Assembly: GCA_000002445.1 (NCBI GenBank)
Contig: CP000069.1
Location: 640,001 to 704,000, forward strand
Direction: 5' to 3'
Source: Trypanosoma brucei
Lineage: Eukaryota
DNA length: 64,000 nucleotides
The notes under the pieces were generated by a model. It was not told the DNA's origin. It saw only the letters and a program-made list of their open reading frames with translations, and did no database searches. Numbering within the stretch: the first letter of the stretch is position 1; the number at the start of each line of letters is the position of its first letter. Of this stretch, positions 46,021 through 49,000 are shown in pieces. The position numbers were made by a program, and so were the translations under genes.

Positions 46021-49000
46021 AGGCGAGATACCGAAATAACTTTGAATCGGTACTAGCCAAAAAACTAAAATAAATCAGCACTCCAGCTTAACATCAATCT
46101 CCTTCGACACCCATTAAACAAAAAGTGTGGGAAACAATGTAGATACATTTAATGAATCCAGTGATTCAGGCAATCTGCATGAAAGTTGCAAACTACACAC
46201 CCTGAAGAAGCATGTGAATCCACCACTGGGACAGTATAAAGTACAAGGATGTGGACCCTACAGACACCGACAACAGTCCAACACATTCAGCAGTACCTAT
46301 GACGAAATCGTAAACAAACAAACAGAGGGCAAGGAAAACAAAAGATAACTACATCAAGCTCCCGGAGGCCCGGTGGATGATAAATATAATTACCCCCTCC
46401 CGCGAACACAGCTAGTGTCAGCTGACAGAACTGCAAATGGTAAACACAAAGAAACTCACAGGAAGGGCAAGGAAACCAAAAACGGAGACACCGGATTCAC
46501 TGTGCGAAAACGTACGAAACCACCAACGTCGAGGACACACCTCTGACACAAAAGCGCTAATAAGACCCCCGTAACTCCCTCCGATCCCTCCCCCCCCCCC
46601 TCATCCGCACCTGCACCAAGCACGTGTGCACACCACATGCAGCAGCGAGTTCAACCAAACAAAACACGCCTGACAAACATCCCAGAGCACGAAGCACAAC
46701 CTCTAAACGGGCTCCTGAAGAAGATAGCAGAACCCTAAAGAAGGAGAAACCGCCCCACATCGGCAACGTAGCACCATTGCCAGCCTCCTCATTGGCACGT
46801 CCGAGGCCGGTGCCCCGTATTACAGAGGGGGAAAGCCAAGAGCCGGCGGCCTGCCGCACCTGCGCGTGATACACATACGCGTAGTGTACCCCCGGCATTG
46901 CAGAGTAATGAGATCAGAGCACGGTATTAAGGTATTCTCCTGTATTTGTTGGTCTCTTACCACGGGTCAGCGGACTGTTAGCGGCACTGGGGGCGGTTGG
47001 TGACACAGCCCAAGGCGTCGCCGAAGCTGTATGCTGATCTGCGGCTATGCCCGACGATTACACCGCTCGCGGTCAGCCGAAGGCAGGGCATGCAGGGTCT
47101 TACGGAGGTGGGAAATCAACTTAAAAAACTCCTGAAACTTCCCCGATATTTGACTGCTGAGAGCAACCGCAACATCACCCCTTAGCACACGTACACTCCT
47201 CCGTGCCAGCCCCTGATGGGATGCCGACGATACTTCTCATGTTCGCCGATTCGGTGAAAAAACTGCCCCTAACCTTATCAGCATCACTCTCGTTATTATG
47301 GACACTTCTTGCGCATACAACTCCTCGACTCTTGCAGGCTTCGTTGCGTGGCCCGGTTACTATGGCGCCTTCCTCAACGCATACCTCTACAGGCCACTGC
47401 AAGATTTAGTGGAGGAGGCGCCATCCCCCGAAACGGTATGCGCCCGCTTTGGCAGTCCAAACATCAATGAAGTCATCTTTTGATCACTAGGTATCGTGGA
47501 CAGGTCCAGCCCGTGGGGTTACATTTCAGCTTCCGTCAACCCGCCTCTGTTTGCGTTAGCATAAGGTTGCCGGCGAGGAAAAGGTTTCATATATTCTGTT
47601 TACATTGGTTAGTGGCTCAATGGATCCATCGTTCACGGCCATGAACAGAACAAAGTCGGACACCGTTCTTTTTGCCACACGACACGGTCATGTGAGATTT
47701 CCCCAAAACTCGTTGGTTTGTACTGACTCTCGCTATCTTGTTTGGTGGAAAGTTTCTTACCCACCACATAATTTGTAGGTTAGGAGATAACTTCTCAGGC
47801 ACTCGAATTGCGTCACCACTCTCCATGGGTCCAAACTCACGAGTGTAGAGTTAGCTTGACCGTGCTGAGTACATTCGGTTCGTACGAAGTTGCGTCTCCA
47901 ATCAACTGAGTTATCGATTCTGCTGCCGAAGGTTGGCGCAGAAACCTTTTCCTTTTGTAGGCACAACCAACGGTCAACGGAATCCACAAATCTCCTTTGG
48001 ACCAACTACTGCATTGCTTTGTAATTGGCGCAGGTGGGCGCTGTTAGTTTTTGACGATGCCATGACAGCAGTCCCCTTGCTTTCCCTTAACGCCAGTTCA
48101 ATAGCTTCACACCTCCACTTTCCCCGTCAGTTCCCAGTATTTTCGATTCCCGTTGAGTAGTTTTTACATGTGGTTTAGCCCGTTTACCTCCATGTTCTTT
48201 AGTTGGTACACCACAAACGCCATTTTCTTCAGCAGAAGAAGGAAATTTCGATCTTCCTGTGGCAACAATCGGCTCCGGCGTGTGAAACGGTTTGAGTTTC
48301 GCGTGTTCTCAACCTCTGGCACGTTCTTTACCGGGGCATCTGAGAGTTTTGTCTGTCGTTGGTGGCGCATATTTGCCGTTGGTCGCTACCCCTGCTCCTT
48401 CTATCAGCATCTTGCCGTTTGCGAGCAGCACAGAATTGACAATAAACCCATGACAAGCATTAAGGCCGATTATTCCCAGCAACCTTCTTCCGTCACTAGA
48501 TGTTCGGATGAGTCTCTTTTGGATTGTTGAGGTGGTTCCGTATATTGTGTTTTTTCCCCGATATGACGATGATATTGCTTCTCCTTCTTCCCCAATGCCT
48601 CTTTATCCTCATCCTAAATTCTGAGAACTTGATGCCTCGCGTCGACCGGCGTCGCTTTTTCCCCCAGGAATGGTTCTCGTGGAGTGGCCGGGGGTCGGGA
48701 TTATACTATCGTCCATGCTGCTTATAGCCTTCGCTGACTTGCGGAGTCTTCTCTCCATTTTTTTTCTATTTCCATTGGGTGATTCATCACCGTTCTGCAC
48801 TGTCCGAAAGATTGGGAGTATTGGGCATACACTTGTTGTTATTCCATCCGTCCATAACCAAGTGTTGGAGTCAAGTGTTCTTCAGCAGTGGTCGCCGTCC
48901 TGTTTACGATTGCTTGTGCATCCTCGAGGTTCGGCATCTGGGGAAGTGGTGTCTAGGTTCGGTCCCGCCTTGAAGTCCTTTCATTCCACGCAATCGACCC

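What the first reader, a model, noticed from the sequence alone, without database searches (positions are those of the whole stretch)
46772..46860. The first ~80 nt of the repeat resemble the Pr77 / HDV-like-ribozyme signature of trypanosomatid non-LTR retroposons
Read in element orientation, the repeat begins CACCATTGCCAGCCTCCTCATTGGCACGTCCGAGGCCGGTGCCCCGTATTACAGAGGGGGAAAGCCAAGAGCCGGCGGCCTGCCGCACC. This GC-rich block with a nested G5/C-rich pairing potential is reminiscent of the conserved 77-79-nt 5' end shared by ingi, RIME, L1Tc, NARTc, DIRE and SIDER. In L1Tc that region has been reported to act both as an internal promoter (Pr77) and as a self-cleaving HDV-like ribozyme. If it is functional, a copy on the sense strand of a polycistronic precursor (copy 1) could cleave the pre-mRNA. 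A copy in the strand-switch region (copy 2) could contribute promoter activity. The assignment is from memory of the published signature, not from a database hit.
Basis: inference. Interest (0 to 1): 0.65.

Follow-up and report, generated by a model that had tools for sequence, protein, structure and literature searches.

The report
Decayed retroposon 5' signature, two copies
The flagged 89 bases are a decayed copy of the 5' signature of Trypanosoma brucei ingi/RIME retroposons, present twice as an identical inverted repeat; the base pairs and the motif needed for ribozyme or promoter activity are gone, so this is most likely an ordinary transposon relic.

Summary
The quoted sequence is at 46772-46860 (+). 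An exact second copy lies at 32726-32814 (-). Each is the start of a sharply bounded 236-nt repeat, 100% identical, in inverted orientation 13,957 nt apart. The window is Trypanosoma brucei-group DNA. Copy 1 is sense inside the minus-strand gene cluster, upstream of the histidyl-tRNA synthetase gene. Copy 2 sits in the divergent strand-switch region.

The Pr77 resemblance is real but partial. A profile of the published T. brucei ingi and RIME signatures hits only these two sites (E about 4e-6; 56/80 identities). The 3' half is 81% identical and the 5' half 51%. Pan-family profiles are not significant.

The functional reading fails. Threaded onto the L1Tc ribozyme fold, which all nine published signatures satisfy, helix P1 keeps 3 of 7 pairs (copy 1) or one pair plus one wobble (copy 2). 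P3 is weakened. The CGTG promoter motif reads TGGC. Strain variants break a P2 pair.

No poly(A), target-site duplication or downstream retroposon similarity was found. The repeat is absent from syntenic T. congolense and T. vivax DNA. Both copies carry the same variants within each genome, which implies gene conversion.

Verdict: a degenerate retroposon relic, of low interest.

The parts
46772..47007 (+). Copy 2 of the 236-nt repeat, in the divergent strand-switch region. It points towards the plus-strand gene cluster. It lies 977 nt from the ATG of the first minus-strand gene (45795) and 3,022 nt from the first plus-strand gene (50029).
   Evidence: It sits exactly where G+T strand asymmetry flips (about 46770-46800) and about 170 nt from a run of 11 G on the minus strand (46590-46600).
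32579..32814 (-). Copy 1 of the 236-nt repeat, sense in the minus-strand polycistron. It lies 634 nt downstream of the stop of a conserved 189-aa gene (33449-34018) and 481 nt upstream of the histidyl-tRNA synthetase ATG (32097).
   Evidence: It is present at the same site in T. b. gambiense (L002) and in assembly GCA_001457755.2 (L003).
32815..32817 (-). CCC immediately 5' of copy 1 only. It restores positions 1-3 of the signature (CCC...), so copy 1 may keep the original 5' end of the element.
   Evidence: alignment to TbRIME starts at position 1; copy 2 has TAG at this place. This could be chance (1/64).
46772..46851 (+). Degenerate Pr77-like signature, equivalent to signature positions 4-83 of alignment A4.
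46769..46775 (+). Position of the P1 5' strand. It is not complementary to 46799-46805 (P1 3' strand): 1 Watson-Crick pair plus 1 wobble of 7 here, and 3 of 7 in copy 1.
46793..46796 (+). Position of the downstream promoter element. It reads TGGC instead of CGTG.
   Evidence: published alignment read.
46778..46784 (+). P2 5' strand equivalent (TGCCAGC). With 46842-46848 it pairs at 4 Watson-Crick pairs plus 1 wobble of the 6 scored pairs. The variant haplotype turns one pair into TxT.
46813..46831 (+). P4 equivalent hairpin, CCCC (46813-46816) with GGGG (46828-46831); 4 of 4 pairs retained.
46832..46848 (+). Best-conserved block, AAAGCCAAGA (J4/2 equivalent, which I infer carries the presumed catalytic C) followed by the P2 3' strand GCCGGCG.
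46856..47007 (+). Tail of the repeat (nt 85-236), origin unresolved. It has no significant similarity to the 5' regions of T. vivax ingi, T. congolense L1Tco or contig L011, nor to SIDER1/SIDER2.

Best explanation
The 89 nt are the decayed 5' signature (Pr77 hallmark) of an ingi/RIME-type non-LTR retroposon. They head a 236-nt fragment that exists twice in this T. brucei-group chromosome, as an inverted repeat 14 kb apart.

What is shown:
- Homology to the T. brucei ingi/RIME signature, strongest in the 3' half (P4, J4/2 and the P2 3' strand).
- Loss of the P1 helix, weakening of P3 and loss of the CGTG element.
- Sharp repeat boundaries with no poly(A), no obvious target-site duplication on inspection, and no further retroposon sequence.
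[quoted passage not shown] What is inferred:
- One old insertion decayed. Copy 1 is the likelier original, because only it has CCC at signature positions 1-3.
- A 236-nt piece was then copied to the second site, or two old insertions were partly homogenised.
- Either way, ectopic gene conversion between the arms keeps them identical.
- Neither copy self-cleaves or acts as a Pr77 promoter.
- Copy 2 lies in the strand-switch region for the usual reason that retroposon debris accumulates at open transcription-start chromatin.
For: - Sequence homology: E about 4e-6 for the only two hits of the Tb ingi+RIME profile. There are 56/80 identities, collinear and ungapped over the first 52 nt. The 5' half alone gives 18/35 in fixed register, matched by 143 of 100,000 shuffles.
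- Fold threading: P1 3/7 in copy 1 and 1 Watson-Crick pair plus 1 wobble of 7 in copy 2; P3 1 Watson-Crick pair plus 1 wobble of 3; P2 4 Watson-Crick pairs plus 1 wobble of 6; P4 4/4; CGTG reads TGGC.
- Fold validity on nine published signatures: P1 paired in 63/63 cells with compensatory changes; 87% of all cells paired against 31-52% for slid controls.
- Family-specific covariance model R1: 18.4 bits for both copies, and only by dropping most of P1 and all of P3. An independent T. vivax ingi signature scores 48.2 bits over its full length.
- Strain variants G12T and C72T fall on both sides of one P2 pair and give TxT, so there is no structural constraint.
- Concerted evolution: the window has G/C/C at the three variable sites in both copies. 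GCA_003543875.1 has T/T in both copies, with the third site G in copy 1 and deleted in copy 2. T. b. gambiense copy 1 has T/T/G.
- No similarity between the flanks of the two copies.
- No SIDER-like sequence in the window, and no credible reverse transcriptase remnants.
- No trace in T. congolense or T. vivax syntenic regions.
- Published criteria for inactivity come from PMC3383444 and PMC4035085. The essential role of the DPE comes from PMC4748587.
Against: - I could not obtain the full T. brucei ingi/RIME sequence. Whether nt 85-236 is ingi-derived is therefore untested, and the tail could be unrelated DNA.
- Pan-family profiles do not reach significance, so assignment rests on two T. brucei reference sequences.
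- Genome-wide copy number is unknown.
- The helix assignments are my reconstruction from the papers' text, because their figures are not held.
- Both copies are known in only two genomes, so the gene-conversion inference rests on two shared sites, with a third that also varies.
- Perfect identity of the arms could also reflect selection.
- An alternative HDV-like topology can be drawn: P1 nt 13-19/54-60, P3 39-41/50-52, P2 33-38/76-81.
- Ribozyme activity cannot be excluded by computation.
Confidence: 0.68

Rival explanations
1. One reading: the block is a working HDV-like self-cleaving ribozyme. Copy 1 would cut the polycistronic precursor between the 189-aa gene and the histidyl-tRNA synthetase gene.
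For: - P4, the J4/2-like AAAGCCAAGA block with its C, and most of P2 are retained.
- An alternative double pseudoknot can be drawn with an ad hoc descriptor.
- Ribozymes are reported active in L1Tc/ingi-clade LINEs, including in T. brucei (PMC4035085, citing unpublished work).
Against: - P1 is lost in both possible registers, and P3 and P1.1 are reduced to wobbles.
- The family CM aligns only the 3' half.
- The alternative fold's descriptor also fires in 2.4% of shuffles and 2.3% of window tiles. The variant haplotype breaks its P2 (C79G).
- The variant haplotype also converts a canonical P2 pair to TxT.
- Some T. brucei SIDER signatures that appeared adequately folded were inactive in vitro (PMC4035085).
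- Folding energy is not better than shuffles.
Confidence: 0.04
2. Copy 2 contributes promoter or transcription-factor binding activity at the divergent strand-switch region, as a Pr77-like internal promoter pointing towards the plus-strand cluster.
For: - Orientation and position fit. It lies in the core of the strand-switch region, at the point where strand asymmetry flips.
- TBP binding to L1Tc Pr77 maps mainly to +24 to +51, particularly nucleotides 38-50, and not only to the DPE (PMC8190864). Positions 38-50 here match ingi at 9 of 13 (read from alignment A4).
Against: - The DPE is absent (TGGC), and mutating it abolished Pr77 transcription (PMC4748587).
- The first 55, 250 or 500 bp of T. 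brucei ingi/RIME gave no reporter expression (Garcia-Salcedo 2003, as cited in PMC1874656).
- An identical copy sits inside a polycistron, where no start is required.
- No sequence motif common to T. brucei start regions was found by others (PMC9566855).
Confidence: 0.07
3. The pair acts as an inverted repeat. If minus-strand transcription starts to the right of 47007, one precursor carries both arms and can form a perfect 236-bp duplex, giving Dicer-dependent siRNAs. Arm identity would be kept by selection or by RNAi-linked processes.
For: - The arms are 100% complementary and vary together between strains.
- All seven long inverted repeats found in T. brucei (422 bp to 10 kb, essentially identical arms) yield siRNAs. 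Their authors suspected selection on hairpin formation (PMC3447711).
Against: - The start sites are unknown. The G11 tract and the asymmetry flip suggest that minus-strand transcription may begin to the left of copy 2 (inference).
- The repeat is shorter than any repeat in that survey and is not listed there.
- Gene conversion alone explains the identity.
- No small-RNA data could be examined.
Confidence: 0.12
4. Copy 1 is a SIDER-like 3'-UTR element that lowers the stability of the upstream gene's mRNA, as Leishmania SIDER2 does.
For: - Copy 1 is in sense orientation, 634 nt past the stop codon of the 189-aa gene and upstream of the pyrimidine-rich stretches before the synthetase gene. It could therefore lie in that 3' UTR.
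- SIDER2 elements carrying this signature destabilise mRNAs in Leishmania (PMC4035085, PMC2323293).
Against: - No SIDER1 or SIDER2 similarity anywhere in the window.
- African trypanosomes are reported not to have expanded or domesticated SIDERs (PMC3820030 highlights, listed).
- The repeat is not conserved in T. congolense or T. vivax at this site.
- UTR boundaries were not mapped here.
Confidence: 0.05
5. The resemblance to Pr77 is coincidental, and the 236-nt repeat is an unrelated segmental duplication.
For: - Pan-family and non-T. brucei profiles are not significant (E 0.35 to 4).
- There is no poly(A), target-site duplication, or downstream retroposon sequence.
Against: - E about 4e-6 with the T. 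brucei profile.
- The match is collinear over 80 nt and starts within 3 nt of the repeat boundary.
- There are long exact blocks (GTGCCCCGTAT, AAGCCAAGAGCC).
Confidence: 0.04

Closest known systems
Pr77 hallmark (77-79-nt 5' signature) of T. brucei RIME and ingi
   Same: - Collinear over 80 nt, with 56/80 identities to RIME.
- Shares GTGCCCCGTAT, the G-run closing P4, and AAGCCAAGAGCC.
- The P2 strands are mostly complementary.
- The match begins at the 5' edge of the repeat.
   Different: - Lacks CCCTGG at +1 to +6, CGTG at +25 to +28 and GCCAGGG at +31 to +37.
- The 5' half is only 51% identical.
- It is not followed by recognisable retroposon sequence, poly(A) or target-site duplication.
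DIRE (degenerate ingi/L1Tc-related elements) and other decayed signature-bearing fragments of T. brucei
   Same: A degenerate signature with substitutions in the first 10 nt and elsewhere, as in several published TbDIRE signatures. Non-coding and immobile.
   Different: - The published DIRE signatures still keep CGTG and most of GCCAGGG.
- DIREs are about 5 kb. Here only 236 nt are repeated, and no convincing reverse transcriptase or endonuclease remnants follow.
L1TcRz and related HDV-like ribozymes of the L1Tc/ingi clade (L1Tco, NARTco, TvSIDER1, Leishmania SIDER2A)
   Same: Same ancestry. The P4 hairpin, the J4/2 block and most of P2 are retained.
   Different: - P1 is lost and P3 and P1.1 are reduced to wobbles.
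- The family CM scores 18.4 bits against 48.2 for a T. vivax ingi signature.
- Published inactive examples have milder defects.
Long inverted repeats of T. brucei that produce siRNAs (IR1-IR7, Tschudi et al. 2012)
   Same: Essentially identical arms separated by kilobases on one chromosome.
   Different: Only 236 nt against 422 nt or more. It is not in their list, none of theirs is on this chromosome, and small-RNA output is unknown.

Membership tests
Pr77 hallmark of ingi/L1Tc-clade retroposons | Significant collinear similarity to the 77-79-nt signature | tested here: met
   The Tb ingi+RIME profile gives E 3.6e-6 and 4.2e-6, the only hits in the window. There are 56/80 identities to TbRIME. 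Caveat: the 14-sequence pan-family profile gives E 0.35, and the profile without T. brucei sequences gives E 2-4.
Pr77 hallmark of ingi/L1Tc-clade retroposons | Signature begins CCCTG at element position +1 | tested here: not met
   The repeat begins CACCATTG. Copy 1 has CCC from the adjoining DNA, then CACCA. Copy 2 has TAG.
Pr77 hallmark of ingi/L1Tc-clade retroposons | CGTG downstream promoter element at +25 to +28 | tested here: not met
   TGGC at the aligned columns. The nearest CGT is 5 nt downstream and reads CGTC (reference alignment read).
Pr77 hallmark of ingi/L1Tc-clade retroposons | Sits at the 5' end of a retroposon body ending in poly(A) and flanked by a target-site duplication | tested here: not met
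   - Identity stops at nt 236 with no A-run at the boundary, and I saw no target-site duplication on inspection (no formal search).
- The flanks are unrelated.
- The tail is not similar to Tvingi, L1Tco or L011 or to SIDERs.
- The T. brucei ingi body was not available for comparison.
HDV-like ribozyme, L1TcRz type | P1 helix of 7 bp starting at the cleavage site (+1) | tested here: not met
   3 of 7 in copy 1, and 1 Watson-Crick pair plus 1 wobble of 7 in copy 2. The nine reference signatures pair in 63/63 cells.
HDV-like ribozyme, L1TcRz type | P3 (3 bp) and P1.1 (1-2 bp) pseudoknot elements | tested here: not met
   P3 is CxC, U.G, C-G. P1.1 is U.G. The helix positions are my reconstruction from the papers' text.
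HDV-like ribozyme, L1TcRz type | P2 helix between the segment after P1 and the 3' end | tested here: inconclusive
   4 Watson-Crick pairs plus 1 wobble of 6 in the window. This falls to 3 plus 1 in the variant haplotype, where both sides of one pair changed to TxT.
HDV-like ribozyme, L1TcRz type | P4 hairpin followed by a J4/2 segment carrying the catalytic C | tested here: met
   CCCC/GGGG pairs 4 of 4, followed by AAAGCCAAGA.
HDV-like ribozyme, L1TcRz type | Match to a covariance model of the family | tested here: inconclusive
   - No Rfam HDV family hit at E up to 10 for either copy. Rfam also misses a canonical Tvingi signature.
- My own model R1 gives 18.4 bits, E about 0.013, through the 3' half only. 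The independent control scores 48.2 bits.
HDV-like ribozyme, L1TcRz type | Mg-dependent self-cleavage at +1 giving a 5'-OH | not testable with these tools
   Needs in vitro transcription.
SIDER1/SIDER2 short degenerate retroposons | Similarity to the roughly 550-600-nt SIDER body | tested here: not met
   nhmmer with a 5-sequence SIDER profile (E up to 10) and with single sequences (E up to 1) finds nothing in the window.
siRNA-producing long inverted repeats of T. brucei | Near-identical inverted arms on one chromosome | tested here: met
   236 nt, 100% complementary, 13,957 nt apart. This is shorter than the 422 bp to 10 kb of the published set (PMC3447711).
siRNA-producing long inverted repeats of T. 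brucei | AGO1-bound 22-25-nt RNAs mapping to the arms | not testable with these tools
   No read data are available here.

The most novel reading that the evidence does not exclude
The perfect identity of the two arms is maintained for a reason. The decayed signature-bearing 236-nt unit would have been co-opted as a paired element, one arm at the edge of a transcription start region and one 14 kb into the same polycistron. The two arms would form dsRNA (an siRNA source) or a DNA/chromatin contact that tunes expression of this gene cluster. Its retained 3' half (P4, J4/2 and P2 block) would serve as a protein- or RNA-binding module rather than as a ribozyme.
Probability: 0.07. Interest if true: 0.55.

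Novelty: new member of a known kind. Interest (0 to 1): 0.2.

Why it matters
It matters little for biology if the relic reading is right. Trypanosome genomes are known to carry decayed ingi/L1Tc-clade fragments, and these are known to gather at strand-switch regions.

The case has some methodological use:
- Recognising the Pr77 signature does not imply ribozyme or promoter function.
- Rfam's HDV models cannot test this family, so a family-specific model or direct threading is needed.
- Short inverted repeats in T. brucei can evolve in concert over 14 kb. That is relevant to how the longer siRNA-producing inverted repeats stay identical.

Tried and rejected
- Rfam on the whole window at gathering threshold, and on both copies at E up to 10. 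No HDV family was hit. I rejected this as a test after the control: a canonical T. vivax ingi signature is missed as well.
- A relaxed home-made HDV descriptor gave about 100 solutions per 316 nt on either strand, so it was useless. A stricter one missed L1Tc, L1Tco and ingi/RIME because of their internal P2 mismatch. It fired on one alternative fold here, at a rate also seen in 2.4% of shuffles.
- Attempts to get the full T. brucei ingi/RIME sequence:
  - A protein search with T. vivax ingi reverse transcriptase returned mostly T. vivax fragments.
  - The one unnamed hit led to a 5'-truncated L1Tc-like metagenome contig.
  - A remembered 20-aa 2A peptide was too short for the tool.
  - Older papers and one supplement are not held.
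  - 10-kb extensions beyond both window ends contain no canonical signature.
- Search for retroposon coding remnants next to copy 2 found only weak, gappy matches on opposite strands (E 0.01-0.06). Rejected.
- An eyeballed similarity of the DNA downstream of copy 1 to SIDER1 3' ends was not supported by nhmmer.
- A look for an empty insertion site in T. congolense and T. vivax failed, because the intergenic DNA is unalignable between species.
- A 14-nt core-like match at 34483-34496 and one in L012 were judged chance.
- Exact-string literature searches for the sequence found nothing relevant.
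Full report
**The observation.** The quoted 89-nt string is on the + strand at 46772-46860. It has one other exact occurrence, on the - strand at 32726-32814. Both are the first 89 nt of a 236-nt unit, 32579-32814 (-) and 46772-47007 (+). The two units are 100% identical, inverted relative to each other, and 13,957 nt apart. Identity stops abruptly at both ends. 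The DNA beyond either end of the two copies shows no similarity above shuffled controls. There is no A-run at the 3' boundary, and I saw no target-site duplication on inspection.

**Genomic setting.** The window is Trypanosoma brucei-group DNA.
- Its histidyl-tRNA synthetase (30664-32097, -) is identical to that of T. b. gambiense record FN554969.1 and of assembly GCA_001457755.2. It is 100% identical to the T. brucei PDB chain over the 91% of the protein that chain covers.
- Other proteins of the window are exact in those assemblies or in GCA_003543875.1.
- I name these assemblies T. b. gambiense DAL972, T. equiperdum OVI and T. equiperdum IVM-t1 from memory of the accession numbers.
- ORFs from 1 to about 45.8 kb are on the - strand, and from 50.0 kb onward on the + strand. 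The interval 45.8-50.0 kb is therefore a divergent strand-switch region.
- Copy 1 is sense within the minus-strand polycistron. It lies 634 nt after the stop of a conserved 189-aa gene and 481 nt before the synthetase ATG.
- Copy 2 lies in the strand-switch region and points towards the plus-strand cluster. It sits where G+T strand asymmetry flips, about 170 nt from a G11 tract on the minus strand.

**Is it the Pr77 signature?** The published consensus signatures were read from the supplement of PMC4748587.
- With the native CCC that precedes copy 1, the element aligns to T. brucei RIME from position 1. The alignment has 56/80 identities and no gap in the first 52 nt.
- A profile of the T. brucei ingi and RIME signatures finds exactly these two sites in the 64-kb window, at E = 3.6e-6 and 4.2e-6.
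- The similarity is lopsided: 34/42 identities in the 3' half and 18/35 in the 5' half. The 5' half is still more than chance in the fixed register, matched by 143 of 100,000 shuffles.
- A 14-sequence pan-trypanosomatid profile gives only E = 0.35. A profile without T. brucei sequences gives E = 2-4.
- Conclusion: the block is a diverged relative of the T. brucei ingi/RIME signature. It has lost most of what is conserved across the whole clade: CCCTG at +1, CGTG at +25 to +28 and GCCAGGG at +31 to +37.

**Ribozyme test.** The figures of the L1TcRz papers are not held. I rebuilt the fold from their text:
- P1 of 7 bp starts at +1. This is confirmed by their C1-A39 remark for L. mexicana SIDER2A.
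- P3 has 3 bp, P1.1 has 1-2 bp, and cleavage is at +1 (PMC3185411, PMC4035085).

I then checked the fold on nine published signatures:
- P1 is paired in 63/63 cells, with compensatory GC-to-AU changes at two pairs.
- Overall, 87% of cells are paired, against 31-52% when partners are slid by 1-3 columns.

Threaded on that fold:
- Every reference forms at least 19 of the 21 scored pairs as Watson-Crick pairs (20-21 counting wobbles).
- Copy 1 forms 3 of 7 P1 pairs, not contiguous.
- Copy 2 forms one Watson-Crick pair and one wobble in P1.
- P3 is CxC, U.G, C-G, and P1.1 is U.G.
- P2 keeps 4 Watson-Crick pairs plus 1 wobble of 6.
- P4 (CCCC/GGGG) and the AAAGCCAAGA block are intact.
- A one-base shift of the P1 3' strand also gives 3 of 7 (checked by hand, not by a tool).

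The family's authors regard two P1 mismatches plus loss of P1.1 as severe (PMC3383444). They tie the weak activity of one Leishmania ribozyme to a single C1-A39 mismatch plus a short P2. They found all tested T. brucei SIDER signatures inactive, including some that appeared adequately folded (PMC4035085).

**Covariance models.**
- Rfam gives no HDV-family match for either copy, even at E up to 10.
- That test is empty. An independent, canonical T. vivax ingi signature (L020:2589-2664) is missed by Rfam too.
- My own model R1 was built from the nine references with P1, P3 and P4.
- R1 scores that T. vivax control at 48.2 bits over its full length.
- R1 scores both window copies at 18.4 bits (E about 0.013). 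It reaches this only by skipping P3 and all but three pairs of P1. The score comes from the 3' half.

**Other folds.**
- A relaxed descriptor draws HDV-like pseudoknots almost anywhere.
- A stricter one finds one alternative in the repeat: P1 nt 13-19/54-60, P3 39-41/50-52, P2 33-38/76-81.
- The stricter descriptor also fires in 2.4% of shuffles and 2.3% of 130-nt tiles of the window. The variant haplotype breaks its P2.
- Predicted folding energy is unremarkable: z = +0.57 for the 89 nt, and -1.25 and +1.90 for the 236 nt on the two strands.

**Promoter test.**
- The CGTG element, reported as essential for Pr77-driven transcription (PMC4748587), reads TGGC at the aligned columns.
- Heras et al. 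(PMC1874656) cite work in which the first 55, 250 or 500 bp of T. brucei ingi/RIME gave no reporter expression.
- TBP contacts in L1Tc Pr77 extend downstream of the DPE (PMC8190864), so some protein binding cannot be excluded. Nothing here supports it.

**What the 236-nt unit is.**
- The tail (nt 85-236) has no significant similarity to the 5' regions of T. vivax ingi, T. congolense L1Tco or an L1Tc-like metagenome contig.
- The window contains nothing resembling T. brucei, T. congolense or T. vivax SIDER1 or SIDER2.
- Reverse-transcriptase-like matches near copy 2 are weak, gappy and on both strands.
- I could not obtain the T. brucei ingi/RIME body, so the origin of the tail is open.
- The repeat is absent from the syntenic region upstream of the synthetase gene in T. 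congolense (967 nt available) and T. vivax (whole intergenic region). Those regions are too diverged to show an empty site.

**Evolution of the pair.**
- Copy 1 is at the same site in T. b. gambiense and in GCA_001457755.2. Copy 2 is at the same site in GCA_003543875.1.
- Three positions vary, all within the signature part: nt 12, 72 and 79.
- The window has G, C, C in both copies.
- GCA_003543875.1 has T, T in both copies. Its third site is G in copy 1 and deleted in copy 2, and copy 2 has one further change.
- T. b. gambiense copy 1 has T, T, G. GCA_001457755.2 copy 1 has G, C, C.
- The same changes in both copies of a genome require at least one transfer between the copies, meaning ectopic gene conversion.
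- nt 12 and nt 72 are the two sides of one P2 pair (G-C). Together they give TxT, the opposite of what a structural constraint would produce.

**Most likely account.** A retroposon of the ingi/RIME lineage inserted in the Trypanozoon lineage and decayed. A 236-nt piece beginning at its 5' end now exists at two sites and is kept identical by gene conversion. Neither copy is expected to self-cleave or to act as a Pr77 promoter. Copy 2's place in a strand-switch region fits the known build-up of retroposon debris at start regions (PMC4748587, PMC9566855).

One consequence that I cannot test is dsRNA formation, if both arms are transcribed on one strand. All seven longer inverted repeats of T. brucei yield siRNAs (PMC3447711).

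**Verdict.** The proposed functions are not supported. The thing is a new example of a known kind, and of low interest.

Noticed in passing
window 38996-39233 and 39462-39699: A 238-nt direct repeat, 95% identical. It corresponds to a tandem pair of 66-aa ribosomal protein S30 genes (Pfam PF04758 in the matching locus L005).
   Followed up: partly
window 18000-24000: A roughly 6-kb stretch with no ORF of 200 aa or more, GC 0.31-0.36, rich in A on the + strand and full of low-complexity AAAGAAAA-type runs, inside the minus-strand polycistron.
   Followed up: no
window about 47560-47900: A segment of the strand-switch region is much more diverged between the window and assembly GCA_003543875.1 than the surrounding DNA, which is nearly identical (alignment A3, columns about 1560-1800).
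   Followed up: no
window about 49262 (end of contig CZPT02000594.1, locus L001): The fragmented assembly GCA_001457755.2 breaks inside this strand-switch region, about 767 nt upstream of the 295-aa gene at 50029.
   Followed up: no
L004 (Logan contig ERR7929157_7138), 1-1835: This contig carries an ORF identical to the window's histidyl-tRNA synthetase. Its upstream DNA is unrelated and holds a 556-aa ORF on the other strand. It may be a construct, a rearrangement or a chimeric assembly.
   Followed up: no
window 47232-47327 (+) and 47662-47847 (-): Weak, gappy tblastn matches to T. vivax ingi reverse transcriptase fragments (E 0.01-0.06), the first one 225 nt downstream of copy 2. The two are on opposite strands, and I judged them unconvincing.
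   Followed up: partly
window 46590-46600: A run of 11 C on the + strand (G11 on the minus strand) about 170 nt from copy 2, at the edge of the minus-strand cluster. From memory, G-runs have been described near T. brucei transcription start regions.
   Followed up: no
L020 2589-2664: A canonical T. vivax ingi signature is not detected by any Rfam HDV-like model at E up to 10. A small family-specific covariance model scores it at 48 bits. Rfam appears to have no usable model for the L1Tc/ingi ribozyme.
   Followed up: yes
window 34483-34496 (+): TGGTATCAGGGTCC matches the conserved core of Leishmania-type signatures, but it has no flanking signature sequence. I judged it chance (E 0.35-0.5).
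   Followed up: yes
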